Assembly: GCF_045037415.1 (NCBI RefSeq) | Contig: NZ_CP173438.1 | Reading direction: 5' to 3' (one strand) | Origin: Escherichia coli | GTDB taxonomy: Bacteria > Pseudomonadota > Gammaproteobacteria > Enterobacterales > Enterobacteriaceae | Length of the DNA: 64,000 bases | Shown: piece after piece, positions 47,060 through 59,889 of the stretch | Numbering within the stretch: position 1 is the stretch's first letter | Layout of the letters: each line of letters begins with the position of its first letter | Made by a program: the position numbers and the translations under genes | The notes under the pieces: generated by a model | Told to the model about the DNA's origin: nothing | The model's database searches: none | What the model saw: only the letters and a program-made list of their open reading frames with translations

Positions 47060-49309
47060 TTAGAAACGGAAGGTTGCGGTTGCAACGACCTGACGTTCTG
47101 CGCCCCAGAAGCAACCATAAGTGTTAAAGCAGCTGGCGACGTATTCACGATCGAACAGGTTGTTGACATGCAGCGCCACGTTGGAGCCCGCCATGCCGAC
47201 TCGCGCCAGATCATAACGCACTAACGCATCCACGACCGTATAACTTCCCACTTTAAAGGAGTTAGCCGGATCACCATAGCTGGAGCCAGTATAACGACCA
47301 CCGGTGCCCAGCGTCAGACCTGAAAGCGGACCGTCAAAGAAGGTATAGTCAGCCCACAGCGAAGCCATGTGTTTTGGCACCTGTGCAGGCGTATTTCCTT
47401 TGTAGTTGGTGTCAGTGGTGTATTCCGCGTCAGTATAGGTGTAAGAACCAACCAAGTTAACACTCGCCGACAGTGCCGCTTTCGCTTCCAGCTCTACGCC
47501 ACGCGCACGAATCTCACCGCCTTCAACCGAGAACAGTGAACCGTTCGGATCCGCCATCAGGTTATTAGTTTTGGTAAGCTGATACAGTGCGCCAGTCACC
47601 ACAATTGGGCGATCTTCTGGCACATATTTCACGCCGACTTCATACTGTTTGCCTTTCGAAGGTGCAAACAGATCGCCGTTCGCATCAGTCTGTGAAGCGG
47701 GTTCAAATGATTCACTGTAGCTGAAGTAAGGCGTTACGCCGTTGTCGAACAGGTAGTTTACACCACCACGCCAGGTGAACTCTTTGTCGTCACGTTCAGA
47801 TTTATTACCGTAATCACGGTTGAAAGATGACTGATCGGCCCAGTCATAGCGACCGCCAAGCGTAACCAGCACTTTATCCCACTGCGCCTGATCCTGAACA
47901 TACAGGCCGGTTTGTTTCTGTTTCAGCAGAACGCGGTATGGACCAGACGGATTCGGGTGAGCGCCAAAATCAAAGTCACTACGGTCTAAATTATAGATAT
48001 CAGATGGTGCAACTGAACCGGCATAACCAAACCAGGAATCGATGTCATTACGCATACGCATAAAGTCAACGCCAGTCAGCAGAGTGTGATCCACTGAACC
48101 GGTTGCGAATTTGCTTTGCAACTGAGTATCAACAGAGAAGTTTTCTAACTTCTCATTATCGATAACGTACTGACGAGTCAGTGTATGGCCCCATTGAGAC
48201 TGCGGCACGTTAGCACATGGACTCGAAGAGGGGTTTGAAGAATAGAGCGGGTCTGAGCACATGCCGTAGCCATATACGCTCTTTTGCGAGACTTTATTTT
48301 GTGCAAAGCGCAGGTTCTGACGCACAGTAAAGGTGTCGTTAAATTCGTGGTCGAAGCTATAACCAATCATCTTCTCGTTACGAGAATAGGTGTTGTTCTT
48401 CGCGCCTTCGTTAAAGTCGGTCGGCAGACGCTTACCGTTTGGCAGCGGTTCGACAGTCCCCTCTTTCGGCAACCAGCCGTAATAACCGGTTTCCGGCTCG
48501 TTCTGGAAGTAAGAAAGGAAAGTGAAATTGGTTTTATCATTCGGACGCCAGGTAAACGCTGGAGCAATAGCATAACGCTGCTCTTCAGCCCCCTTCTGCT
48601 GGGCATTCGCAGAACGCGCAAGGCCGGTCAGGCGATAAGAGTAAACGCCGTCATCATCCAGCGCATCGCTGAAGTCAAAACCAGTCTGGAATAGGCTGTC
48701 AGTCCCGGCCTTAAACTGAACTTCTTTCAACGGTTCAGTGGTCGGGCGCTTGCTGACCATGTTCAACAGGCCGCCTGGGCTGCTTTTCCCATACAGCACG
48801 GAAACCGGGCCACGCATGATTTCAGCGCGCTCCAGCATATATGGGTCAATAACCGCATCGTTATAGAAGTTGCCCTGCATCTTCAGGCCATTCAGATAGT
48901 TGTTCTGGCTTTGGCCGTCTGCCGCAAATCCGCGGATGATCAGGTAATCATAAGTATTAGATGCGCCACGGGTTCCCACAGCAACGCCAGGGGTATAGCT
49001 AAGCGCTTCTTTCACCGACTTAGGCTGATGCAGTGCCATCTCTTCAGCGGTGACGACAGAAATAGATTGAGGTACTTTTTGAATCGGCGTATCAGTTTTA
49101 GTGCCGGTAGCGGACTGTCGCGCCGCAATAGTTGCAGCTGGCCCCCATGCGCTTTCTTGCGGCGCAGGTGCAGCGGTAACGGTGATAGTGTCTTCTTTCG
49201 GTTCAACCGCTGCCTGTGCATAAACAGACATGCCGCTAACCGCTGTGGCTACTACAACTGCGATTTTACGCAGTGAGTGTTTTGGCTGAGCAGTTTTGGA
49301 ACGCGCCAT
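47060..49309 (-). CDS. fhuA: TonB-dependent ferrichrome outer-membrane receptor FhuA (receptor for phages T1/T5/phi80, colicin M, albomycin); loop variant differing from K-12
   Basis: 749-aa ORF; signal peptide, TonB box DTITVTA, C-terminal ...ATATFRF; several internal segments differ from the K-12 sequence as I recall it. Confidence 0.95.
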   Translation of the reverse strand: MARSKTAQPKHSLRKIAVVVATAVSGMSVYAQAAVEPKEDTITVTAAPAPQESAWGPAATIAARQSATGTKTDTPIQKVPQSISVVTAEEMALHQPKSVKEALSYTPGVAVGTRGASNTYDYLIIRGFAADGQSQNNYLNGLKMQGNFYNDAVIDPYMLERAEIMRGPVSVLYGKSSPGGLLNMVSKRPTTEPLKEVQFKAGTDSLFQTGFDFSDALDDDGVYSYRLTGLARSANAQQKGAEEQRYAIAPAFTWRPNDKTNFTFLSYFQNEPETGYYGWLPKEGTVEPLPNGKRLPTDFNEGAKNNTYSRNEKMIGYSFDHEFNDTFTVRQNLRFAQNKVSQKSVYGYGMCSDPLYSSNPSSSPCANVPQSQWGHTLTRQYVIDNEKLENFSVDTQLQSKFATGSVDHTLLTGVDFMRMRNDIDSWFGYAGSVAPSDIYNLDRSDFDFGAHPNPSGPYRVLLKQKQTGLYVQDQAQWDKVLVTLGGRYDWADQSSFNRDYGNKSERDDKEFTWRGGVNYLFDNGVTPYFSYSESFEPASQTDANGDLFAPSKGKQYEVGVKYVPEDRPIVVTGALYQLTKTNNLMADPNGSLFSVEGGEIRARGVELEAKAALSASVNLVGSYTYTDAEYTTDTNYKGNTPAQVPKHMASLWADYTFFDGPLSGLTLGTGGRYTGSSYGDPANSFKVGSYTVVDALVRYDLARVGMAGSNVALHVNNLFDREYVASCFNTYGCFWGAERQVVATATFRF

Positions 49310-49528: not shown

Positions 49529-50539
49529 TTATCGGTAATACACTTCGAAGGTGGCAACAGAATTAACCCGACCACTTTTGACGCTACCCATTTTGATGTA
49601 GCGTGCTTTTAACGGAATAGTAACATTTTGATTTAACGTCGTTTTTTGAACAGGTGTATAGTCTGTATCAAATACCATCACATTGTTATTACTATCGAGG
49701 ATCTGCAGACCAACTCCTTCCGCCATTCCTGAACCAGACTCAATATTAAGAATATTATTACCCGTTACTCCAGTAGAACCTGATGAAGTAAAGCGGTAAT
49801 CAACTTTTACATCCTGAGAACATTTTTCAATCTGAATTTTAAACCGATCATCGGAAACTACAGGTGACACATTGTTAACATCAAAATCATCTGTGCCAAT
49901 ATCATTGAGTGGAACGGTAATATTTTTTTCTATAAGGTCGCATGTGCCCGGTTGAATATTGACCGGAACAGAACTAAAACGAAGCTCTCCAATAACACGA
50001 TTGTCATACTTCCAGTCAGCAACCAGTTTGCTGGTATCAATGGTCCCATTACCGACAGGTCCTGTGACAATAAACTGAATAGCTGCATGTATTGTAATCG
50101 GATAACCATATCCTTTAATCACTGTTGACGAGCCTTTATGCCAGGGCGTCATTAAATATCCGGCGGTGAGTTGCGCACTGGTGTTATTCGCCCACGCCGC
50201 GCGAAAACCGATTCCTGGCACATTAGTCTGAAACACATTGTTAAGTGGGTTATCAGTACGCATATCACCGTTTGTCAATACGGTATATCCTTGCCAGATC
50301 TCACCATTTGCCGTACAGGAAACTGAAATTGACGGACTGTTCGCATTTACTGTCGCAATAATCGTTCCAGGAACGGCATCGCTATTAACAACCAACGCAG
50401 GCACGGAGAATTGTACTGTTGCCGGATTTCCTCCATTTCCAGAAATGTTACAACCGGCGAAAACCTCAGGAATGACGCCCCAGCTAAGAAATATTATGGT
50501 CAATAATGTTCGTATATAAGAGACGAATCCTGGCTTCAT
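49529..50539 (-). CDS. fimbrial tip adhesin / minor subunit (two-domain, 336 aa) of a chaperone-usher pilus
   Basis: Signal peptide MKPGFVSYIRTLLTIIFLSWGVIPEVFA; C-terminal pilin-type ...SVATFEVYYR; last gene of operon after the usher; AT-rich. Confidence 0.8.
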   Translation of the reverse strand: MKPGFVSYIRTLLTIIFLSWGVIPEVFAGCNISGNGGNPATVQFSVPALVVNSDAVPGTIIATVNANSPSISVSCTANGEIWQGYTVLTNGDMRTDNPLNNVFQTNVPGIGFRAAWANNTSAQLTAGYLMTPWHKGSSTVIKGYGYPITIHAAIQFIVTGPVGNGTIDTSKLVADWKYDNRVIGELRFSSVPVNIQPGTCDLIEKNITVPLNDIGTDDFDVNNVSPVVSDDRFKIQIEKCSQDVKVDYRFTSSGSTGVTGNNILNIESGSGMAEGVGLQILDSNNNVMVFDTDYTPVQKTTLNQNVTIPLKARYIKMGSVKSGRVNSVATFEVYYR

Positions 50540-50560
50540 TATTTTTTCCTGTCTTATTTG

Positions 50561-53038
50561 TTATCGGCAATCCATTGTGGCTTTATAGATACCCGTGGTG
50601 TATTTTTCTGGCACTGTGACAACTCCTGTACATTGCTGGTTAATCTCTTTTCCCCACTGTACCGTAAATGTCATTGATTCTTGCACACCAGTAATATAAA
50701 CCTCCCCATCTTCACCAACAATCGCTGTACTATTCCCTAATGTCAGCAATGCCCCAAAGGGTACGCGTTCTTTATTATGGACTAATGTCAACAAGGCTCG
50801 TATTCCGCTACGTGCATCAAAATCGACACCAACAACAGCCCCTTTCGAAGGAATAACATCTTGTGTGGCATCAGAAATATCAAGACTATCGTGCCCCTGT
50901 GTATTCACAGTAATAGCGTTATGTCGATAATTCGTCATATTGGGAACAATCGCGTTTCCCCAATAATCAGTATAAACGCCTTGCGCATTTTGTACTTTTA
51001 CATTGGCACCCTCATTAATATGCACGATCGCGAATGAATCCTGCACTGATTGCCCCAATGTTACTCCATGAGCATGAGCAACCACCGCACCTTGCGCACT
51101 GTAATTCCACTGACGACTATTTTTATCATAGCTATATCCCAGACCGAATTCCCCCACTGAGCTACGATAACGTCCATTCATGCTGGCATCATAACCCACA
51201 TTATTATCAGTATAACTTTGCTGTAAATTATAACTCAGGTTGTTATCTTGCAGAGCAGTACCGCCAATTCCCAATTGATGTGATGTATTACTTTTATCGG
51301 AACGGTTTACGTTATACATCGCCCATGAATCTGGCAGCCAGCGAGAGAGAGGAATATTGAGTGTTAATGAAAATTGCTGCTCACCAGCCATTCCTGGCGT
51401 TTTCGTTAGTGTGTAATTAACAGACCAATTAATGTTACTCCAGGTCGTACTGTATCCCATTCCTATACTGCGTTCGGCCCCATGCATTCCCCAATAATCC
51501 TGTTGATAACCGTTAAGGTAGACCGAGCCCCAACGACCAATATTTTGTGAAAGATTAATTTGTAAACGATTACGCCGATTATTTGTCTGTCGATAACTGT
51601 AAATACCCTTGTCATCAGGTGTATCACGTTGATCAAGTGCTTCCTGGAAAGTGTAAAATTGTGATGTAGAATAACGATAACTTGCCAGAGTTACTGTCGT
51701 ATCAGTGTCTGGAAAATCTTTCGCATACTGTGCACGCCATGACAGTCCTGTAGCATCATCACGCCCATCATCAAACTTCGTTTCTGCTGCGGTGATATCA
51801 ACAGATACCGACCCCAGACGGCCTAAATCAGCGCCAATCCCTGTCACACCAGAATGATAAATTGAGGCACCAAGTATGCCGCCATAAATCGTTATTCCAT
51901 AGGGCAAGCCATATATCGCGGTTGCAACACCAAAAACAGGTGTCTCAGCATGATTATCGTTGTCACGGTATTTTCCAGTTGCAAGACTATATTTTAATGC
52001 GCCTTCTCGCTGTAGAATTGGAACCGTTGAACTGGCCTGAATAAAACTGTGTTCTTGCCCGTTGGTTTCTTTGATGGTGACTTCCAGATCGGCCCCCGCC
52101 GTTACCTGGCTTAAGTCTTTAATTTCAAATGGCCCTGCCGATACCCACGTTTGGTAAATAACATAGCCGTTTTGTTTAATCACAACTTGTGCATCGCTGT
52201 TGGCAATACCACGAACCACTGGCGCAAAGCCTTGTTCGCTGTCAGGCAGCATACTGGTGTCCGTTTCAAGCTTTATACCTGTCATCTGCACACTGTCAAA
52301 AAGATCGCCATTTGTGAACGTCTGCCCGACTTCCATCTGGCTTCTTAATGCTTTGATATCGCGTTGCAAACTGGTGCTGATCGACTCCCAACTGGAGTCA
52401 CTGTAAACGGTATTATTTCGTAGCCGCCATACGCCTAAATTAATCCCTGAATTTAAATTCAACCAATTTGAATTCAGGTTATCGCCATCACTGTTTTGCC
52501 GGGAACCACTGGCGTAATAACTTAACCAAACCGCACTCTCACCATCACTCCAGTATTTCGGTGAAATACTCCCTGCGGCCCGCGCATTCTGATAGATTTG
52601 CGGGATCCGCAGACACAGCGTTTGGCTGTCTAACTGGAAATCATAACGTGCGCCATCAATAATCTGAGCAATATCACCAAACTCAGTGTCATCATCCATT
52701 ACTTGTAACGCGGGAATGTCGTCAACTTTAAGACCGAACTCACGGAGATCCGCCTTTGTAAAACGAGGGATGAGCCTTTTTTTATCCGAAGACAGAATGA
52801 AGGTAATATTTCTCTTATCAAGATACTCTTGCCCCCACATAACAGAGGTAAGATATACTCCCGGAGTTAAGTTATTATTATTAACAAAATCCTCCAGCAC
52901 TTGTGTATTTTCAAGTGGGCTATCCAGCTCCAGGATACGAAGGTTAAATTCATCTCGTGCATAGCTCAATGAATACACTGCCGATAATGCAAATGTTATC
53001 CCAGTTAAGACAAATGTGCGATGCAATGGTAGCAGCAT
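50561..53038 (-). CDS. fimbrial outer-membrane usher (FimD/PapC family)
   Basis: 825-aa ORF with signal peptide and usher-like size and composition; lies between chaperone and adhesin genes. Confidence 0.9.
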   Translation of the reverse strand: MLLPLHRTFVLTGITFALSAVYSLSYARDEFNLRILELDSPLENTQVLEDFVNNNNLTPGVYLTSVMWGQEYLDKRNITFILSSDKKRLIPRFTKADLREFGLKVDDIPALQVMDDDTEFGDIAQIIDGARYDFQLDSQTLCLRIPQIYQNARAAGSISPKYWSDGESAVWLSYYASGSRQNSDGDNLNSNWLNLNSGINLGVWRLRNNTVYSDSSWESISTSLQRDIKALRSQMEVGQTFTNGDLFDSVQMTGIKLETDTSMLPDSEQGFAPVVRGIANSDAQVVIKQNGYVIYQTWVSAGPFEIKDLSQVTAGADLEVTIKETNGQEHSFIQASSTVPILQREGALKYSLATGKYRDNDNHAETPVFGVATAIYGLPYGITIYGGILGASIYHSGVTGIGADLGRLGSVSVDITAAETKFDDGRDDATGLSWRAQYAKDFPDTDTTVTLASYRYSTSQFYTFQEALDQRDTPDDKGIYSYRQTNNRRNRLQINLSQNIGRWGSVYLNGYQQDYWGMHGAERSIGMGYSTTWSNINWSVNYTLTKTPGMAGEQQFSLTLNIPLSRWLPDSWAMYNVNRSDKSNTSHQLGIGGTALQDNNLSYNLQQSYTDNNVGYDASMNGRYRSSVGEFGLGYSYDKNSRQWNYSAQGAVVAHAHGVTLGQSVQDSFAIVHINEGANVKVQNAQGVYTDYWGNAIVPNMTNYRHNAITVNTQGHDSLDISDATQDVIPSKGAVVGVDFDARSGIRALLTLVHNKERVPFGALLTLGNSTAIVGEDGEVYITGVQESMTFTVQWGKEINQQCTGVVTVPEKYTTGIYKATMDCR

Positions 53039-53104
53039 AAATTCCCTTGCGCCCGTAATATTATAAATACAGATCGGTTATTTATAGTAATACACTTCGG
53101 TGAT

Positions 53105-53821
53105 TTATAACTTTTGTTGTCGTTTCCCAGAACTTGAACCGTAGTCAGTTATCACCGACCATTCAACAATACTTCCCGCTCCGACAGGAAGACTAAACCG
53201 CTGCTCAGAAAATGGTCCTACCATCATCAATAATGCGCCAGGTTCAGATTTGCTCTCGGTGGGAACAATATTTTTTCCCGATACTGTCAGATCACTGAAT
53301 GAAATATAAAAAGGCGTTGGATTTTTTACTATGAGCTTCCCCGCTTCTTTATGGAACTTAAGTTTTTCCCATGCAGTGAGAGCATCACTATTATCCAAAG
53401 AAGCTGGCCGCCAAAATAATTTAAGCCGGGCTTTCATTGCAAATTGCAAGGTATTTCTATCTTTTAGTTCTTCTGGCATCGCAGAAACAGATTTTATGTT
53501 TGCCAGAAACAAACTTTCCCTATCCTGAGGAAGTTTGTTTTTATCACCTGTAAATACAATATGGAGTAATGTTTGCCGATTTTCTTCAAGTTTATAAACT
53601 GGAGGCGTAATGAGAAAGGGGGCTTTAGAGCCATCAATATTACTCACCCAGCTTTGCACCAAATAGCGTGCATATGCATCTTTATTTTTTAATGTGATTT
53701 GAACTTCATTTTGATTTGAAGGATAGATAATACGTGTACCGCCAAGAACAATACTTGCCTGAACTTGCAATGCCGTAAGAAGAAACGTAAAACCTAAACA
53801 AACTCGAGAAAAAACTGACAT
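53105..53821 (-). CDS. periplasmic fimbrial chaperone (PapD/FimC family)
   Basis: ORF track 53105..53854 begins at TTG; ATG at 53821 gives MSVFSRVCLGFTFLLTALQVQA signal peptide; ~238 aa. Confidence 0.85.
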   Translation of the reverse strand: MSVFSRVCLGFTFLLTALQVQASIVLGGTRIIYPSNQNEVQITLKNKDAYARYLVQSWVSNIDGSKAPFLITPPVYKLEENRQTLLHIVFTGDKNKLPQDRESLFLANIKSVSAMPEELKDRNTLQFAMKARLKLFWRPASLDNSDALTAWEKLKFHKEAGKLIVKNPTPFYISFSDLTVSGKNIVPTESKSEPGALLMMVGPFSEQRFSLPVGAGSIVEWSVITDYGSSSGKRQQKL

Positions 53822-53866
53822 AAATAACCCTCCGTGGTCAAACAGTCCTTTCAAACACTATGAATA

Positions 53867-54433
53867 TTAGCGATAAAATACTTCGAACGTCGCAGATGAG
53901 GCATACTTACCCGCAGTCGGCGCGTTATTACCAACCTGAATAACATTGGCGGTGTAATTGAATATTGTTGGAGTAATGCTCCCGGCATTATCAACATCAG
54001 TGGATGCATCGGGAACTGAACCATCAAATTTCACATCGTTAGCACCGCCATTTTTATTTGTCACCGTAATACCCACATTTGTTGCACTGCCAGCCCCAGC
54101 TTCGCTATTTTCCAGACGCAGGAAACCTGCATCCGTTGTCGTTCCAGAAAATGTCAGGTTTAGTTTGTCCACCAACGGATCGCATTTTATTAATTCAATT
54201 TTAAAATCTTTTGACGTTCCAATACTACCGTCTCCAGAATAGTCCGCTGGGTAAGTATCTGCAAAAGTGACTGTCCCTGTTGTACTGGCAGACTCGTTTA
54301 CATTAATTTCGCAAGTATCGGCAACAATTTTACCGTTAAAGTTAACCACTCCGGTATCTGTAGCAAATACACTGGTACTTACTACAGCGATGAGACTTCC
54401 TGACACTAACAGAGAAAGCAATTTTTTATTCAT
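53867..54433 (-). CDS. major fimbrial subunit (type-1-like pilin)
   Basis: 188 aa; signal peptide MNKKLLSLLVSGSLIAVVSTSVFA; Cys pair (ADTC...IKCD); C-terminal ...SSATFEVFYR; first gene of operon. Confidence 0.85.
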   Translation of the reverse strand: MNKKLLSLLVSGSLIAVVSTSVFATDTGVVNFNGKIVADTCEINVNESASTTGTVTFADTYPADYSGDGSIGTSKDFKIELIKCDPLVDKLNLTFSGTTTDAGFLRLENSEAGAGSATNVGITVTNKNGGANDVKFDGSVPDASTDVDNAGSITPTIFNYTANVIQVGNNAPTAGKYASSATFEVFYR

Positions 54434-54734
54434 AAAAATCCCTTAATTATGAGGTAATACACATGATTCCATTCCAGAGCGACTGGTCAGGGCTTGATAA
54501 ATATTGATATTAGAAATATATCCACCAAATAATATTATTTTTAGATTAGAACAAAAAACACATAGCCTGTCTATACAAACTGCAGTAATAAAACAATAAC
54601 CACATGAATTTTAAAGTGTTGTTTTTATTTTAAGAGTTTAAGGTAATAAAATATAACATAAACCCAAAATATATATTAATGGTCGTATATTCATTAAATA
54701 AATATTTATTTGGTTTATCTAAATGATTTCATTA
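54434..54734 (-). promoter_or_regulatory. AT-rich upstream region of the fimbrial operon (candidate promoter; possible nucleoid-protein silencing target)
   Basis: ~300 nt, visibly AT-rich, immediately 5' of the major pilin gene; no ORF. Confidence 0.4.
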
Positions 54735-54758
54735 CGCTCTCCGCATAAGCGGAGAGCG
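54735..54758 (-). terminator. terminator-like hairpin immediately after mrcB
   Basis: cgctctccgc ataa gcggagagcg perfect 10-bp stem 10 nt past the mrcB stop; downstream flank is A/T-rich but without a clean U-run. Confidence 0.55.
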
Positions 54759-54767
54759 ATTACGATA

Positions 54768-57293
54768 TTAATTACTACCAAACATCTCCTTGATCCAGCC
54801 AGCCACGCCGTCGCTGTCTTTTTGCTCCTGTTGAGCAGGTTGCTGTTGCTGCGGCTGAGAAGACTGATCAAACGGATTGCCTGACGGTTGCTGCTGCATC
54901 TCACTCTGCTGGCACAGCGATTGCGGATCGCTGGTCCAGACTGGCAAGACACGCATACCACCGCTGCAAACAAAGTTGCCGTCGTAGTCCACGCCCATAT
55001 CTGCAATATCTTCCGGCGGAACAAGATTCAGCGGTGTTGGCGTCTGGTTAGCCAGATAACGCTGATAAATCGACATTGCCCCGCTGGCACCATACAGTTT
55101 GGTCGGCTGGTTGTTATCACGGCCGACCCAGGTGATGGTCACCGTGCTCCCATCAATGCCCGCAAACCAGGTATCTACGTTATTGTTGGTAGTCCCTGTT
55201 TTCCCTGCCAGATGCAGGTTCGGGTATTTTGCCCCAAGCTGACGTCCCGTACCGCGTTGTACAACCTGCTGCATGGTCCATAGTGTCAGATACGCCGCCT
55301 GCGCCGGAACAGCGCGTTCTGCCTGCGGGAAGCTCTGATACAACACCTTGCCGTCTTCTGCGATGACTGAACGTAGCGCGGAAAGCGGAGCACGATTACC
55401 ACCGCTGGCGATAGTCTGGAAGGCCTGCGCCACTTCGATTGGCGTTAAGTTCAACGCCCCCAACAACATTGCTGGAACTGGATTCAGTTGATCTTTCGGC
55501 ACACCCAGTTTGATCCAGGTATCCGTAACCGCAGGCAGCCCCAACGCCATGCCCAGATTCACCGTTGGCACGTTCATCGAACGGGTCAACGCATCTACCA
55601 GCATCACCCTGCCACTTTCGCTATAACGACGATCATCGTTCTGCGGTGACCAGACCTGGCCATTCGGCTGACGCAGCGCGATTGGCGCATCGGCAATCCA
55701 CGTATTCAAACGATAGATTTTCGGCTGGCTTAAGGCCGTTAGATAAGTCGCTGGTTTTGCAAGGGAACCAATCGAACGACGCGCCTGCATCGCACGGTTG
55801 TAGCCCGCAAACTGCGGCTCAGAGCCACCGACCATCGCACGAACTTCACCGCTAAAGCGGTCAACAACCACAATCGCGGTTTCAAGATCGCTCAACTTAC
55901 GCTGTTTCTTCAGTGCCGGAATGCCTTCCACGGCGGCTTTTTCTGCCGCGTCCTGGGCCACCGAGTCAAAGGTAGTGAAGATCTTCACGCCGGAGAGATC
56001 TTTTACCTTATCGCCTAATTTCGCCTGCAGCTCCTGACGCACCAGCTGCATAAAGGCTGGCTGAGGAGAGATCACCCCACCGCGCGGCTGAACACCCAGC
56101 GGACGTGCACTCAACATGTCATAGAGTTCTTGATCAATAATTTGTTGCTGTTGCAGCAAACGTAGTACCAGGTTACGTCGCTCCAGCGCCAGTTTCGGGT
56201 TACGCCACGGGTTGTAGATGGACGCCCCTTTCACCATACCCACCAACAGCGCCTGCTGATCGAGGCTCAATTCTTCTACCGGGCGACCAAAGTAATACAA
56301 GCTCGCCAGCGGGAAGCCGCGGATTTCGTTGTCGCCGCTCTGACCGAGATACACCTCGTTCATATACAGCTCAAGAATACGGTCTTTGCTGTAACGCGCG
56401 TCCATGATCAGCGCCATGTAGGCTTCGTTCGCTTTACGCCAGTAAGAACGCTCGCTGGAGAGAAACAGGTTTTTAACCAACTGTTGCGTCAGCGTACTCG
56501 CCCCCTGCACCGTGCGTCCGGCAGTCAGGTTTGCCAGCACCGCACGTCCGATTGAGTAGAGACTGATCCCATCATGCTCGTAGAAATGACGGTCTTCTGT
56601 CGCCAGCAAAGTATCCACCAGCAAATCCGGGAAACCACTGCGCGGCACAAACAGACGCTGCTCACCGTTTGGCGAAGAGATCATGGTGATCAGGCGCGGA
56701 TCAAGACGGAAGAAACCGAACTGACGGTTGTTCTCCATATTGACTATCGTCGCCAGATGATCGCCATCAAAGGTCAGACGCGCGCGCACCTGCCCTTCTT
56801 TGCTGTCCGGGAAATCAAACGGACGGCGGATCATCTCAATGCTGTTGGCCTGTACGGTAAACTCACCAGGACGGGTCATTTTCGACACCTGGCGATACTG
56901 GGTCGCCTCCAGCAGCTTCACCATCTCGTTCTTGCTGATGGTCATGTCTGGCTCAAGGTTGACCATTCGACCATAAACTGCCGCGGGCAATTGCCAGACC
57001 TTGCCATCAATACGGCTGCGAATTTTTTGATCGAGATAAACGCCGTAAATGGCGATCAGCACGGCAAAAACGATAGCCAGTTTTAGCAGCAGCCATAGCC
57101 AGCCGCGTTTGCCACGAGGCTTACGCCCTTTGCCTTTGCCCTTACCTTTGCGCGGCATCGGTTCTTCATCCTCATAGTCATCATAATCGTCGTAATCATC
57201 GTCATCTTCGTAACGACGACGGCTTACCTTTTGTTTGACCGGACGCGTCGGTTTCCCTTTGCGTCCAATTGGCTCGCGGTCATTCCCGGCCAT
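54768..57293 (-). CDS. mrcB: penicillin-binding protein 1B (bifunctional glycosyltransferase/transpeptidase)
   Basis: ORF track 54768..57308; ATG at 57293 gives [22 protein letters not shown]...; 841 aa here versus 844 recalled for K-12 (shorter C-terminal Q/P repeat). Confidence 0.95.
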
Positions 57294-57386
57294 GCTTTTT
57301 CTCCGCAATATTCAGGCGCAAAAGCCCGATTTTCTGTTCTTCTGTTGCAAGACAGAAGAAGATATCTCTCAAATTTGCTTTGGTCT

Positions 57387-59816
57387 TCACGAATACTTTT
57401 TCGTTCGTCGCGTCGGTGCGGTGTTTGCCGGGTCGTCCGGCCAGACATGTTTGGGATAACGCCCTTTCATCTCTTTTTGCACCTCACGGTACGCTCCTTT
57501 CCAGAAGGCGCTCAAATCACGCGTGATTTGCAGCGGCCTTTGGGCAGGGGAAAGCAACTCCAGCACCAACGGTACGCGCCCCTGGGCGATAGTCGGATTA
57601 GAGGCCTCACCAAACATCTCCTGCATTCTCACCGCCAGCGCGGGCGGGTTATCTTCATGGTAACGAATGGCGATCCGGCTTCCCGTCGGCACAGTGTAAT
57701 GCGCAGGCAATTCACTATCCAGACGTTGCTGCATTACCCAATCAAGTAATCCACGCAGTGCCTGATAAATATCGAGTGATTTCAGGCCGCGTAGCGAATG
57801 TACGCCTGTCATATGCGGCAGTAGCCACGTTTCCAGCGTCGCCAACAAACTTTCATCATCAACCGCTGGCCAGTCATATTCCGGCAACCACTTTGCGGCA
57901 CATAACAAACGCAAGCGTAGCTGTTCCGCTTCCGCCGTCCAGTTGAGCACGCTTAAACCTTTATCACGAATGCCGTTAAGCATCGCCTGATGCAACTCGT
58001 CTTCCGAGGGTTTCGCCAGCGGTTGCACTTTTACCGTCAACTGACCGATTTGCAGCCGACGCCAGGCTTTCAGCGTACCTTGCGCGTCATCCCACTCCAC
58101 GGTGTCAGACTGCTGTACCAGCTGCGGGCAGCGTTGTACTAACTCATCAATATCGACCGGCAGCGCCAGTAAAATCCGCGCATCCGGCGAAGAACTGCCC
58201 TGCAATAATAACGGCGCGATCAACCATTCGTGGCGGCTAAGCGCATCGTCGGCATCGAGCATCGCCCCCATGCCGTTCGCCAGTTGATAGCGTCCCTCTT
58301 GCCCACGGCGGCGAGCAATACGATCGGCATACGCTCCGGCAAGTCGCGGCGCGATAAGCGAACTGTCTGCCTCACCGCCGCGTACGTTTAAACGTTTTAA
58401 CAGTTGCTGACTACGTTGCTGCCAGGCGGGTTGATTGCGCAAAAACGCCACGCCCAGGTCACTATTGCCCATCCGTGGCGGCTCTTCGAGAATGGCGGCA
58501 ATTTTTGCCGCGGTAGCAGCTTCGTCGTCGTTCTTCGCGCTAACCAGCATTGCCGCTAAACGCGGATCGTTACCCAGCGCTGCCATTTTTTGCCCTTGCG
58601 CACTAAGCCGTTCACCGTCCAGCGCCCCCAGCATCCGTAACAGGCGTTTCGCGGCCAGTAGATTCACCGTTGGCGGTTGATCCAGCCAGCTCATCTGCGC
58701 CGGATCGCTGCATCCCCATTGCAGTAATTCCATCAGCAAACAGGAAAGATCGCTTTGTAATATTTCCGGTTCACTTTGCGCGGCAGCGCGTTCTGCTTGT
58801 TCTTTGGCGATTAAATGCAGGCAGATACCCGGCTCCAGACGCCCGGCACGCCCGGCACGTTGCGTCATCGACGCCTGACTAACACGTTGAGTAACCAGCC
58901 GCGTAAGCCCTGTACGCGGATCAAAACGCGCCACACGCTCCTGGGCACAATCCACCACCAGACGAATACCTTCGATGGTTAAACTGGTTTCAGCAATATT
59001 GGTCGCCAGCACCACTTTACGCATCCCTTGCGGTGCCGGGAGGATCGCTTTTCGCTGATCGTTCAGCGACAACGCGCCATACAGCGGGCAGAGCAACACA
59101 TCACTGCCGATGCGTGAAGTCAGTTGTTCCTGCACACGCTGAATTTCTCCGACGCCAGGTAAAAATAACAGTAATGATCCACTTTCCTGACGCAGCATTT
59201 CGGCGGTGGCAACCGCGACGGCTTCGTCAAAACGCTGATGAGCGGGCAGCGGCAAATAACGGCGTTCAACTGGAAACGAGCGCCCTTCTGAGATGACGAC
59301 GGGCGCTTCTGGCAGCATTTGCTGCAAGCGGTCGTTGTCCAGCGTAGCCGACATAATCAGCAGTTTAAGGTCATCACGCAGACCTTGTTGCACATCGAGT
59401 AACAGCGCCAACGCCAAATCCGCCTGCAAGCTGCGCTCATGAAATTCATCAAGGATCACCAATCCAACACCGCTCAGTTCCGGGTCACGCTGGATCATCC
59501 GCGTCAGCACGCCTTCGGTAACCACTTCCAGGCGGGTATTCGGCCCGACGCAGTTTTGCGCACGCATCCGGTAGCCAACGGTATCGCCTGGCTTTTCGTT
59601 AAGCAGCTCCGCCAGTCGTTGCGCAACGTTACGCGCCGCCAGACGACGCGGCTCCAGCAGGATAATTTTCCCGTTAATGCCGGGATGCGCCAGCAGTTGC
59701 AGCGGCAGCCAGGTTGATTTCCCGGCCCCGGTCGGCGCACTTAATAACACCTGCGATGCACCATCGAGGGCAGCAAGTAACTCAGGTAAGACGGCAGCAA
59801 CGGGCAACGACGACAC
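57387..59816 (-). CDS. hrpB: ATP-dependent RNA helicase HrpB (DEAH-box)
   Basis: ORF track 57387..59861; GTG at 59816 with GGAG SD gives (M)SSLPVAAVLPELL..., 809 aa; Walker A APTGAGKST; DEFH box. Confidence 0.9.
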   Translation of the reverse strand: MSSLPVAAVLPELLAALDGASQVLLSAPTGAGKSTWLPLQLLAHPGINGKIILLEPRRLAARNVAQRLAELLNEKPGDTVGYRMRAQNCVGPNTRLEVVTEGVLTRMIQRDPELSGVGLVILDEFHERSLQADLALALLLDVQQGLRDDLKLLIMSATLDNDRLQQMLPEAPVVISEGRSFPVERRYLPLPAHQRFDEAVAVATAEMLRQESGSLLLFLPGVGEIQRVQEQLTSRIGSDVLLCPLYGALSLNDQRKAILPAPQGMRKVVLATNIAETSLTIEGIRLVVDCAQERVARFDPRTGLTRLVTQRVSQASMTQRAGRAGRLEPGICLHLIAKEQAERAAAQSEPEILQSDLSCLLMELLQWGCSDPAQMSWLDQPPTVNLLAAKRLLRMLGALDGERLSAQGQKMAALGNDPRLAAMLVSAKNDDEAATAAKIAAILEEPPRMGNSDLGVAFLRNQPAWQQRSQQLLKRLNVRGGEADSSLIAPRLAGAYADRIARRRGQEGRYQLANGMGAMLDADDALSRHEWLIAPLLLQGSSSPDARILLALPVDIDELVQRCPQLVQQSDTVEWDDAQGTLKAWRRLQIGQLTVKVQPLAKPSEDELHQAMLNGIRDKGLSVLNWTAEAEQLRLRLLCAAKWLPEYDWPAVDDESLLATLETWLLPHMTGVHSLRGLKSLDIYQALRGLLDWVMQQRLDSELPAHYTVPTGSRIAIRYHEDNPPALAVRMQEMFGEASNPTIAQGRVPLVLELLSPAQRPLQITRDLSAFWKGAYREVQKEMKGRYPKHVWPDDPANTAPTRRTKKYS

Positions 59817-59889
59817 AAAACGCTCCAGAGGGTTAACATTCTTCGCGCCACATTGTAGCATCGCGGTAATTCATAACCGAGTGCCTCAC

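What the first reader, a model, noticed from the sequence alone, without database searches (positions are those of the whole stretch)
54434..54767. AT-rich control region upstream of the fimbrial operon, abutting the mrcB terminator
About 300 nt of strongly AT-rich sequence separates the mrcB terminator hairpin (54735-54758) from the major pilin start codon. AT-rich curved DNA of this kind upstream of horizontally acquired fimbrial operons is typically bound by H-NS and can host phase-variable promoters. I did not find clear inverted repeats of a fim-like invertible switch by eye, and no recombinase gene is nearby.
Basis: inference. Interest (0 to 1): 0.4.

Follow-up and report, generated by a model that had tools for sequence, protein, structure and literature searches.

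The report
Promoter region of the Ush fimbrial operon
This AT-rich 334-bp spacer is the ordinary promoter and leader region of a catalogued but little-studied E. coli fimbrial operon (ushABCD, typical of ST131 and EPEC); it shows a promoter conserved across several genera and no sign of a DNA-based on/off switch.

Summary
Window 54434-54767 is exactly the spacer between the mrcB stop codon and the pilin start codon. At 27% GC it is the most AT-rich stretch of the 64-kb window. It carries a perfect 10-bp hairpin at 54735-54758, but no U-tract follows the hairpin, so it is not a canonical terminator.

The operon is already catalogued: fimbrial type 'ECSF_0165' (Wurpel 2013), named ushABCD (Stubenrauch 2017). 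About 570 of 5,426 complete E. coli genomes carry it, including ST131-labelled strains and EPEC E2348/69. Orthologous operons sit between mrcB and fhuA in Enterobacter, Citrobacter, Lelliottia, Pluralibacter and Huaxiibacter.

Aligning these spacers reveals a conserved sigma-70 promoter with an extended -10:
- -35 TAGACA at 54573-54568;
- 17-bp spacer, TG at 54553-54552;
- -10 TCTAAT at 54550-54545.

The predicted leader is about 105 nt and carries a conserved AAUGGA motif.

Four switch signatures were tested and none was found:
- inverted repeats are at chance level;
- there is no GATC and no recombinase;
- promoter and leader are at least 99% identical in 565 of 566 genomes;
- those assemblies show one orientation only.

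H-NS silencing is untested here. It is indirectly supported because Ler activates the EPEC allele 4-5 fold. The region is an ordinary new member of a known kind, of low interest.

The parts
54768..57308 (-). mrcB (PBP1b) coding sequence as the longest ORF; its stop codon at 54770-54768 bounds the spacer
   Evidence: ORF list. RefSeq annotates mrcB at the same place in strain SK1144, with a start about 15 nt further in. The last ~90 nt are only 83% identical to K-12.
54735..54758 (-). Perfect 10-bp stem / 4-nt loop hairpin, 9 nt after the mrcB stop. No U-tract follows. Likely a 3'-end stabiliser or weak terminator for mrcB.
   Evidence: -22.9 kcal/mol, z = -5.4. Not called by the terminator scan. 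Conserved with one base change in E2348/69. Absent from ush-negative E. coli such as K-12, which has a different hairpin. The other genera have a canonical GCCGCTT...AAGCGGC + T7 terminator at this place.
54574..54734 (-). AT-rich upstream tract (GC about 20%) between the hairpin and the -35; candidate H-NS nucleation and silencing region
   Evidence: Composition. H-NS binding is inferred only. Two independent IS1 insertions fall here.
54616..54634 (-). Upstream block CTTAAAATAAAAACAACAC, partly conserved across genera as ATTAAGAATAAATAACAAC. It contains the AAAAAC unit (54626-54621), which is duplicated in nearly all other carriers.
   Evidence: Alignments A2 and A1. 562 of 566 genomes fall in the 90-95% identity band against the window's single-copy form, and all 39 full-length rows listed carry the 97-nt two-copy form.
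54568..54573 (-). -35 hexamer TAGACA of the conserved promoter (P1)
   Evidence: T.GACA is invariant or nearly so in 13 aligned spacers. The pattern is found once in 14 of 15 orthologous spacers and in 0.05-0.5% of shuffles per sequence.
54545..54553 (-). Extended -10 of P1: TG (54553-54552), one base, then TCTAAT (54550-54545). The spacer to the -35 is 17 bp. The predicted start is near 54538.
   Evidence: PWM rank 2 in the region. The start site is inferred and not mapped.
54434..54538 (-). Predicted 105-nt leader of ushA mRNA. It is enriched in GGA triplets (4 against 0.8 expected).
   Evidence: Two independent IS1 insertions interrupt it in other strains.
54474..54486 (-). Small leader hairpin CCAG-N5-CTGG. 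The stem is conserved and the loop varies among three E. coli alleles.
54468..54473 (-). Conserved AAUGGA motif, ending 29-36 nt before the ATG in every aligned orthologue; function unknown (CsrA-type site is one reading)
54463..54490 (-). Alternative proximal promoter candidate P2: CTGACC, 16 bp, TGg, AATCAT
   Evidence: Top PWM score in the region (7.98). Conserved among E. coli alleles, but the -10 hexamer is not conserved in the other genera.
54439..54444 (-). Shine-Dalgarno AAGGGA, 5 nt before the ATG
53867..54433 (-). ushA, major pilin (188 aa)
   Evidence: Identical to WP_001035606.1. 88% nt identity to E2348C_0153.
49529..53854 (-). ushB chaperone (53105-53821, or to 53854 as the longest ORF), ushC usher (50561-53038), ushD two-domain adhesin (49529-50539)
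   Evidence: Wurpel Table S2 column ECSF_0165 lists EC958_0295, E2348C_0155 and ECSF_0165. Named ushABCD in PMC5717340.

Best explanation
The spacer is the cis-regulatory region of the ushABCD chaperone-usher fimbrial operon (fimbrial type ECSF_0165, gamma* clade, related to Lpf and Yra).

Read in the operon's sense (minus strand), the layout is:
1. The mrcB stop codon.
2. A stable stem-loop without a U-tract. It probably ends or stabilises the mrcB message but is not a strong intrinsic terminator.
3. About 160 bp of roughly 20% GC DNA.
4. A sigma-70 promoter with an extended -10: TAGACA, 17 bp, TGt, TCTAAT.
5. A leader of about 105 nt with a small hairpin, a conserved AAUGGA motif and the ribosome-binding site.
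6. The ushA start codon.

Most likely mechanism: RNA polymerase uses the conserved promoter. The AT-rich tract across and upstream of it is coated by H-NS-family proteins, which keeps expression low. Expression rises when an antagonist is present (Ler in EPEC) or when conditions loosen H-NS binding. Control is therefore graded silencing and anti-silencing, not a heritable DNA switch.

Status of each step:
- Shown here: the composition, the hairpin, cross-genus conservation of the promoter and leader motifs, and the absence of switch signatures.
- Taken from the literature: Ler activation and real expression of the EPEC allele.
- Inferred: the start site, H-NS occupancy and any leader-level control.
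For: Identity of the operon:
- The order is pilin, chaperone, usher, adhesin between mrcB and fhuA.
- The E2348/69 locus matches at 88-95% nt identity in the genes and 81% in the spacer.
- Wurpel Table S2 column ECSF_0165 lists EC958_0295, E2348C_0155 and ECSF_0165. The ushABCD naming is in PMC5717340.

Promoter:
- In an alignment with 44% mean column identity, the invariant columns spell T.GAC(A) ... T.TG.T..AAT.
- The pattern occurs once in 14 of 15 orthologous spacers with a 17-18 bp spacer, against 0.05-0.5% of shuffles per sequence.
- It is intact in the diverged E2348/69 allele.

Leader:
- AAUGGA ends at a nearly fixed distance (29-36 nt) from the ATG in every aligned orthologue. GGA triplets total 46 observed against 17.5 expected over 14 leaders.

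Own promoter rather than read-through from mrcB:
- In EPEC RNA-seq, the mean normalised counts are ushA 285 over 567 nt and mrcB 434 over 2535 nt. That is about three times the read density in ushA.

H-NS-family control:
- The spacer is 27% GC and the lowest in the window.
- It stays at 29-38% GC in the other genera, where the operon's coding GC is mostly close to the flanks.
- E2348C_0153 is activated 4-fold (mid-log) and 5-fold (late-log) by Ler. The authors predict that all Ler-activated genes are H-NS-repressed.
- Lpf, from the same usher clade, is reported to be reciprocally controlled by H-NS and Ler.
- Four independent IS1 insertions within 334 bp fit an AT-rich target.
Against: - No transcription start has been mapped, and no H-NS occupancy data exist for any ush-carrying strain that I could find.
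- No match within 1 mismatch to the TCGATAAATT H-NS motif lies in the region, and there is no phased A-tract signal.
- A proximal candidate promoter (CTGACC-16-TGg-AATCAT, 54490-54463) scores slightly higher in a simple PWM scan (7.98 against 6.96).
- The promoter pattern was derived from the alignment and then counted, so the shuffle frequencies are post hoc.
- The Ler effect comes from a microarray on an allele only 81% identical in the spacer, and it may be indirect.
- ST131-type strains are not known to encode Ler (my knowledge, not checked here), so what relieves silencing there is unknown.
Confidence: 0.62

Rival explanations
1. The region hosts a phase-variable promoter: an invertible segment like fimS, a Dam/Lrp methylation switch like pap, or a slipped-strand tract in the promoter.
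For: - Many fimbrial operons are phase variable (general knowledge).
- The repeat finder lists imperfect inverted repeats, for example 24 nt at 79% flanking 165 nt.
- A T6 run lies in the promoter spacer, and it is T7 in E2348/69.
- A 6-bp unit differs in copy number between the window and other strains.
Against: - The best inverted repeat equals the shuffle mean.
- None of the annotated neighbours is a recombinase.
- There are zero GATC sites in all three E. coli alleles, and the operon holds only four structural genes, with no regulator gene.
- The 179-nt promoter and leader are at least 99% identical in 565 of 566 genomes.
- Those 566 records give 567 places. The extra place seen is in strain 20409 (2 places), whose leader carries an IS1, so no inverted segment appears in the assemblies.
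- The 6-bp unit is present as only 1 or 2 copies.
Confidence: 0.05
2. The working promoter is the proximal one (P2: -35 CTGACC 54490-54485, TGg, -10 AATCAT 54468-54463), which would give a short leader of about 23 nt. On this reading the conserved AATGGAATCAT is promoter DNA and not an RNA element.
For: - It has the highest PWM score in the region.
- All its elements are identical in the ST131-type, E2348/69 and SCPM alleles.
- An IS1 insertion in strain 20409 sits right on it.
Against: - In the other genera the hexamer after TGG is ATGCCT, ATTCCA, ACGCAT and the like, which lack the key A2 of a -10. So the conserved motif cannot be a -10 there.
- The whole proximal leader is conserved among the E. 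coli alleles, so conservation of P2 is not specific to it.
- P1 is conserved across genera in otherwise unalignable DNA.
Confidence: 0.2
3. The operon has no effective promoter of its own in this lineage. What transcription occurs is read-through from mrcB past a hairpin that is not a real terminator, and the AT-rich tract is a passive spacer of a cryptic operon.
For: - The hairpin lacks a U-tract.
- mrcB and the operon are co-directional.
- Four IS1 insertions, two of them inside the leader, are tolerated in clinical isolates.
- ushB is frameshifted in E2348/69.
Against: - In EPEC the read density in ushA is about three times that in mrcB.
- ushA responds to Ler.
- The promoter and leader motifs are conserved over genus-level divergence.
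- The region is at least 99% identical in 565 of 566 genomes.
Confidence: 0.1

Closest known systems
Regulatory region of the long polar fimbriae operon lpf1 of EHEC O157:H7 (H-NS silencing, Ler anti-silencing)
   Same: - The usher belongs to the same gamma* grouping (Wurpel Table S2), and LpfC is the best NCBIfam usher match.
- Both have an AT-rich upstream region.
- Ler raises expression in both: E2348C_0153 by 4-5 fold, and lpf is reported as H-NS-repressed and Ler-antagonised.
   Different: - The usher scores 680 bits against a cut-off of 1271, so it is not Lpf.
- The chromosomal site differs (mrcB-fhuA).
- H-NS and Ler binding to this DNA has never been shown.
- The ST131-type carriers are not known to have Ler (my knowledge, not checked here).
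Cryptic H-NS-silenced chaperone-usher operons of E. coli K-12 (yra, yad and others; Korea et al. 2010, as cited)
   Same: - A simple operon with an AT-rich promoter region and no dedicated regulator gene.
- Yad is described as H-NS-repressed and not phase variable.
- YraJ is described as the closest E. coli relative of UshC.
   Different: - YraJ is only 40% identical to this usher.
- I saw no AATGGA motif or other evident similarity in the yraH upstream region when reading it.
- ush is sporadic, at about 10% of complete genomes, and not core.
fimS invertible promoter of type 1 fimbriae
   Same: Both are a roughly 300-bp promoter-bearing region in front of a major pilin gene.
   Different: - There are no flanking inverted repeats above chance.
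- There is no FimB/FimE-type recombinase nearby.
- Only one orientation is seen across the 566 carrier genomes.
pap-type Dam/Lrp epigenetic switch
   Same: Both are an intergenic control region of a chaperone-usher operon.
   Different: - There is no GATC at all.
- The locus has only four structural genes, with no papI- or papB-like regulator.
bgl operon upstream silencer, activated by IS1/IS5 insertion (my recollection, not checked here)
   Same: Both have an AT-rich upstream tract that repeatedly receives IS1. Two insertions lie about 80-110 bp upstream of the predicted start.
   Different: - Two other IS1 insertions lie inside the leader and must be disruptive.
- No expression data exist for any of these alleles.

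Membership tests
ushABCD / ECSF_0165-type fimbrial operon (control region of) | Four genes (pilin, chaperone, usher, adhesin) at the mrcB-fhuA locus, orthologous to ECSF_0165, EC958_0295 and E2348C_0155 | tested here: met
   Gene order. E2348/69 has the same locus at 88-95% nt identity in the genes. Wurpel Table S2. Naming. ST131-labelled genomes carry an identical promoter.
Sigma-70 promoter with extended -10 | -35 close to TTGACA, 17 +/- 1 bp spacer, TGn, -10 close to TATAAT | tested here: met
   TAGACA-17-TGt-TCTAAT. Conserved in 14 of 15 orthologous spacers.
Sigma-70 promoter with extended -10 | A mapped transcription start about 7 nt downstream of the -10 | not testable with these tools
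   No start-site data were found for ush-carrying strains.
H-NS-silenced (xenogeneic-silencing type) promoter region | DNA much more AT-rich than the genome over more than 200 bp | tested here: met
   27% GC against 51.5% for the window; the lowest stretch in 64 kb.
H-NS-silenced (xenogeneic-silencing type) promoter region | H-NS occupancy and derepression in an hns mutant | not testable with these tools
   No ChIP or hns-mutant data were found for this locus. No high-affinity motif match within 1 mismatch.
H-NS-silenced (xenogeneic-silencing type) promoter region | Response to an H-NS antagonist | tested here: inconclusive
   Literature only: Ler activates E2348C_0153 4-5 fold in EPEC. This is a microarray on an allele 81% identical in the spacer, and direct binding was not shown.
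Intrinsically curved upstream DNA | A-tracts phased at about 10-11 bp | tested here: not met
   AA/TT spectral power at 10-11.5 bp is reached by 53% of dinucleotide shuffles.
fim-like invertible switch | Inverted repeats flanking the promoter segment | tested here: not met
   Best inverted-repeat score 9 against a shuffle mean of 9.0 +/- 1.1.
fim-like invertible switch | Adjacent site-specific recombinase, and both orientations present in populations | tested here: not met
   None of the annotated neighbours is a recombinase. 566 records give 567 places; the extra place seen is in strain 20409, whose leader carries an IS1.
pap-like Dam/Lrp switch | Two GATC sites in Lrp-binding regions, plus PapI/PapB-type regulators | tested here: not met
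   Zero GATC in the spacer in all three E. coli alleles. The operon has only four structural genes.
Slipped-strand (repeat-tract) promoter phase variation | A long homopolymer or short-repeat tract in or near the core promoter whose length varies among close relatives | tested here: not met
   The tract is only T6. 565 of 566 genomes are at least 99% identical over the promoter and leader. The AAAAAC unit occurs as 1 or 2 copies.
Rho-independent terminator | GC-rich stem-loop | tested here: met
   10-bp perfect stem, -22.9 kcal/mol.
Rho-independent terminator | U-tract immediately 3' of the stem | tested here: not met
   The stem is followed by UAAUGAAAUCAUUU. The scan does not call it. Orthologues in the other genera do have a T7 run.
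CsrA-controlled leader | Two or more GGA motifs, one overlapping the Shine-Dalgarno sequence, 10-63 nt apart (spacing rule from memory of Mercante et al. 2009) | tested here: met
   GGA at -34 to -42 in 14 of 14 leaders and at -8 to -11 in 13 of 14. Total 46 observed against 17.5 expected.
CsrA-controlled leader | CsrA binding and CsrA-dependent translation | not testable with these tools
   There are no data. GGA is not consistently placed in a hairpin loop in the predicted folds.

The most novel reading that the evidence does not exclude
The conserved leader module is a post-transcriptional control element. The module consists of a small hairpin, AAUGGA ending 29-36 nt before the start codon, and a second GGA in the ribosome-binding site. 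It could be bound by CsrA or by Hfq with an sRNA. If so, Ush fimbriation would be tied to carbon or iron status across Enterobacteriaceae. In EPEC, Hfq lowers ushA mRNA, and RIL-seq recovered ushA::RyhB chimeras. The operon sits directly upstream of the iron-regulated fhuA.
Probability: 0.15. Interest if true: 0.4.

Novelty: new member of a known kind. Interest (0 to 1): 0.2.

Why it matters
ushABCD is one of the few fimbrial operons that set the pandemic ST131 lineage and the EPEC E2348/69 lineage apart from most other E. coli, and its regulation has not been studied. This analysis gives three things that make it directly testable:
- a concrete promoter (TAGACA-17-TGt-TCTAAT, start near 54538);
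- a conserved leader motif;
- natural variants: the 6-bp allele and four IS1 alleles.

It also corrects the picture of a recent foreign island. The mrcB-fhuA slot holds this operon in several other genera of Enterobacteriaceae, and the AT-rich control region is kept even where the genes have native composition.

None of this is surprising to a specialist. AT-rich, H-NS-type controlled fimbrial promoters are the norm.

Tried and rejected
- Rfam scan of 54200-55000, both strands, permissive threshold: only two chance-level hits (E = 0.7-0.8), so no known RNA family.
- H-NS high-affinity motif TCGATAAATT within 1 mismatch: 7 matches in the window, about as expected by chance, and none in the region.
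- RcsB box (TN[GA]GAN4TC[CT]NA, consensus recalled from memory). I suspected it because AAGAATAAT recurs in the upstream block and in the Enterobacter promoter spacer. There was no strict match in any of 15 spacers, so I dropped it.
- Helical phasing of AA/TT as a proxy for curvature: not above shuffles.
- Inverted-repeat significance: at chance level.
- Comparison with the K-12 yraH upstream region, chosen because YraJ is described as UshC's closest E. coli relative. The ushers are only 40% identical and I saw no evident similarity in the upstream region when reading it, so K-12 start-site and H-NS data cannot be transferred.
- E. coli 042, as a strain with H-NS-related literature: it lacks the operon.
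- Literature by locus tag and by name: no promoter, start-site or H-NS study of this locus turned up. The 2026 EC958 qRT-PCR screen of all chaperone-usher loci does not give this locus's result in its text.
- The sigma-70 scan's own minus-strand candidate (TTAATA-18-TATATT, 54679-54650) is not conserved in E2348/69.
- Small ORFs in the spacer, read by eye: an 18-codon ORF starting at about 54693 is not conserved in E2348/69, so I rejected it.

Full report
**What is in the sequence**

On the minus strand the window reads hrpB (57387-59861), then mrcB (54768-57308), then a four-gene chaperone-usher operon, then fhuA (47060-49309). The operon's genes are:
- pilin, 53867-54433;
- chaperone, 53105-53821;
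- usher, 50561-53038;
- two-domain adhesin, 49529-50539.

The finding's coordinates, 54434-54767, are exactly the spacer between the mrcB stop codon and the pilin ATG. Its GC content is 27.2%, and 21% over 54500-54699. The window as a whole is 51.5% GC, and every 334-nt window at or below 30% GC lies here.

The hairpin at 54735-54758 is real. It has a perfect 10-bp stem and a 4-nt loop, and as RNA it folds at -22.9 kcal/mol with z = -5.4. The next bases on the mrcB strand are UAAUGAAAUCAUUU, and the terminator scan does not call it. So it is a stable 3' stem-loop but not a canonical intrinsic terminator.

**What the operon is**

Megablast against 5,426 complete E. coli genomes finds the spacer with both gene ends in 574 genomes. 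The 179-nt promoter-proximal part is found in 566 of them, including strains labelled O25b:H4-ST131. K-12 and EAEC 042 lack the operon. They have a 219-nt mrcB-fhuA spacer with a different hairpin.

EPEC E2348/69 carries the operon at the same place. In Wurpel et al. 2013 (PMC3559732, Table S2) the usher column 'ECSF_0165' (gamma*) lists EC958_0295, E2348C_0155 and ECSF_0165. The text calls this type 'sporadic'. Stubenrauch et al. 2017 (PMC5717340) named it ushABCD, placed it in ST131 and an EPEC lineage, and inferred lateral transfer. Neither paper maps a promoter. The object is therefore a catalogued operon with an uncharacterised control region.

**Not simply a foreign island**

A scan of one genome per species found orthologous operons in Enterobacter (several species), Citrobacter, Lelliottia, Pluralibacter and Huaxiibacter. 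The chaperone is 56-66% identical to the window's. In every locus where both flanks were available the operon lies between mrcB and fhuA.

In most of those genomes the operon's coding GC is close to that of the flanking genes. It is 53-56% in Enterobacter, Lelliottia, Huaxiibacter and Pluralibacter, and somewhat lower in the Citrobacter loci. The E. coli copy is 42% GC against 51-55% flanks.

The ST131-type and E2348/69 alleles differ markedly:
- spacer, 81% identical;
- ushA, 88%;
- ushC and ushD, 95%;
- mrcB, 99%.

So the slot is old and shared, while the E. coli alleles look imported. They probably arrived by recombination through the flanks. The last ~90 nt of mrcB and parts of fhuA are mosaic relative to K-12.

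Importantly, the spacer is AT-rich (29-38% GC) and 320-406 nt long in ten of the eleven complete orthologous spacers. The eleventh, Citrobacter FP75, is 33% GC and 559 nt. AT-richness is therefore a conserved property of the control region itself.

**Phylogenetic footprint**

Thirteen spacers align at only 44% mean column identity. One block is nevertheless invariant or nearly so: T.GACA, then 17-18 bp, then TG.T..AAT. In the window this reads:
- -35 TAGACA, 54573-54568;
- a 17-bp spacer;
- TG, 54553-54552;
- -10 TCTAAT, 54550-54545.

The pattern occurs exactly once in 14 of 15 orthologous spacers, and in 0.05-0.5% of shuffles per sequence. It was defined after seeing the alignment, so these frequencies only illustrate the point. 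The pattern is intact in E2348/69, where the spacer is 18 bp with T7 instead of T6. It predicts a start near 54538 and a 105-nt leader.

Two further blocks are conserved:
- An upstream block, ATTAAGAATAAATAACAAC in the other genera and CTTAAAATAAAAACAACAC at 54634-54616 in the window.
- A leader motif AAUGGA, ending 29-36 nt before the ATG in every aligned orthologue (54473-54468 in the window). In E. coli it is preceded by a small hairpin whose stem is conserved and whose loop varies.

GGA triplets are enriched in the leaders, with 46 observed against 17.5 expected. They sit at two fixed places: -34 to -42, and -8 to -11, the ribosome-binding site.

A simple PWM scan also flags a proximal candidate, CTGACC-16-TGg-AATCAT at 54490-54463 (score 7.98 against 6.96 for P1). 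Its -10 is not conserved outside E. coli, so I rank it second.

**Tests of the phase-variation idea**

- Inverted repeats: the best score of 9 equals the shuffle mean of 9.0 +/- 1.1.
- Recombinase: none among the annotated genes within 9 kb on either side.
- GATC: none in any E. coli allele.
- Repeat tracts: the only one in the core promoter is T6.
- Population variation: 565 of 566 genomes are at least 99% identical over the 179-nt promoter and leader.
- Orientation: 566 records give 567 places. The extra place seen is in strain 20409 (2 places), whose leader carries an IS1. An inverted segment would have shown up as further places.

I conclude there is no evidence for any DNA-based switch. 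Bistable expression without a DNA change cannot be excluded from sequence.

**Tests of the H-NS idea**

The direct tests give mixed results.
- In favour: the extreme AT content.
- Against: no match within 1 mismatch to the TCGATAAATT motif, and no 10-11 bp A-tract phasing.

The published evidence is indirect but relevant:
- In EPEC E2348/69 the first gene, E2348C_0153, is activated 4-fold (mid-log) and 5-fold (late-log) by Ler, the H-NS antagonist. The authors predict that all Ler-activated genes are H-NS-repressed. They also cite the H-NS/Ler control of Lpf, a fimbria of the same usher clade (PMC3891560).
- In an EPEC RNA-seq data set the mean normalised counts are mrcB 434, ushA 285, ushC 14.6, ushD 7.7 and fhuA 1174. 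Hfq is reported to lower E2348C_0153 (PMC8550237).
- Per kilobase, ushA is about three times mrcB. This argues for an own promoter rather than read-through.

I therefore regard H-NS-type silencing with anti-silencing as the most likely mode of control. It is not shown.

**Variation seen in passing**

The window has one copy of AAAAAC (54626-54621). In a 91-nt search, 562 of 566 genomes fall in the 90-95% identity band, and all 39 full-length rows listed carry the 97-nt two-copy form. No full-length exact match to the window's form was found. E2348/69 has the unduplicated form. The duplication therefore looks derived, and the window's form is either ancestral or a reversion.

IS1 has inserted independently at four sites within the 334 bp in five genomes:
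- about 54433-54440;
- 54457-54465;
- 54618-54625;
- about 54631-54647.

Two sites lie upstream of the promoter and two inside the leader. This fits IS1's taste for AT-rich DNA (my knowledge). Whether any of them activates the operon, as in bgl, is unknown.

**Verdict**

- control region: yes;
- H-NS control: plausible and indirectly supported;
- phase variation: not supported;
- 'terminator' and 'curved': not supported;
- 'horizontally acquired': needs qualification.

This is an ordinary regulatory region of a known kind, attached to a catalogued but little-studied operon. What the analysis adds is a concrete, testable promoter and leader. Interest is low.

Noticed in passing
window 54621-54626 (repeat unit); compare L001 9320-9325: The window has one copy of the hexamer AAAAAC (TTGTTT on the + strand). 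In a 91-nt search, 562 of 566 carrier genomes fall in the 90-95% identity band, and all 39 full-length rows listed carry the two-copy form. No complete genome matches the window's form exactly. E2348/69 has the unduplicated form. The site lies about 80-90 bp upstream of the predicted start, inside a partly conserved block.
   Followed up: partly
window ~54433-54440, 54457-54465, 54618-54625, ~54631-54647 (seen in L046, L045, L002, L044): Four independent IS1 insertions, with different sites and target duplications, fall within this 334-bp spacer in five sequenced isolates. Two are upstream of the promoter and two are inside the leader. Their effect on expression is unknown.
   Followed up: partly
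L005-L016 (Enterobacter, Citrobacter, Lelliottia, Pluralibacter, Huaxiibacter): The orthologous four-gene operon occupies the same mrcB-fhuA slot in five other genera. Its coding GC there is mostly close to the flanking genes (46-56%, against flanks of about 49-62%). The E. coli copy is 42% GC against 51-55% flanks. This suggests an old shared slot with an imported low-GC allele in E. coli.
   Followed up: partly
window 54434-54538 and orthologous leaders: GGA triplets are enriched in the predicted leaders: 46 observed against 17.5 expected over 14 sequences. They sit at two fixed positions, -34 to -42 and in the Shine-Dalgarno sequence. This is the layout expected for a CsrA-bound leader.
   Followed up: partly
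E2348/69 NC_011601 173326-173407 (ushA codons ~5-32); window equivalent ~54339-54420: Published EPEC RIL-seq tables list 12 chimeric fragments joining E2348C_0153 (ushA) to the iron-starvation sRNA RyhB (P about 7e-4). The paper's text reports that Hfq lowers ushA mRNA. The operon lies next to fhuA. I did not test the pairing.
   Followed up: no
window 54768-54858 and 48019-48309: The last ~90 nt of mrcB are only 83% identical to K-12, although most of the gene is 95-98% identical. A segment of fhuA is 64-71% identical to K-12, and fhuA is 66% identical between the window and E2348/69. The flanks are mosaic, consistent with recombination having brought the locus in.
   Followed up: partly
L047 5926-6643; L004 788-1500: The chaperone gene ushB is annotated as frameshifted in E2348/69. 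In the divergent E. coli strain SCPM-O-B-8794 it also matches in two overlapping, out-of-frame pieces. Stubenrauch et al. also noted chaperone pseudogenisation in such operons.
   Followed up: no
L011 4844-5402 (Citrobacter sp. FP75): One orthologous locus has a much more divergent pilin (42% identity) and a longer 559-nt spacer that lacks the conserved promoter pattern. This suggests replacement of the pilin gene together with its control region.
   Followed up: no
window 54504-54533, + strand: A promoter-like match (TTGATA-18-AATAAT, 10 of 12) points away from the operon, antisense to the predicted leader and promoter. Overall, promoter-like matches in the region are at chance frequency (3 found against 2.5 +/- 1.5 expected).
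   Followed up: no
L003 1460-1500 (K-12 mrcB-fhuA spacer): The K-12 hairpin after mrcB (ACCGGATGGC...GCCATCCGGT) is also not followed by a U-run on the mrcB strand. The lack of a canonical mrcB terminator is therefore not peculiar to ush carriers.
   Followed up: no
search result: Three of the 5,327 places matching the 601-nt query (probably through its mrcB end) lie on plasmids, and one genome holds two places. I did not examine these.
   Followed up: no
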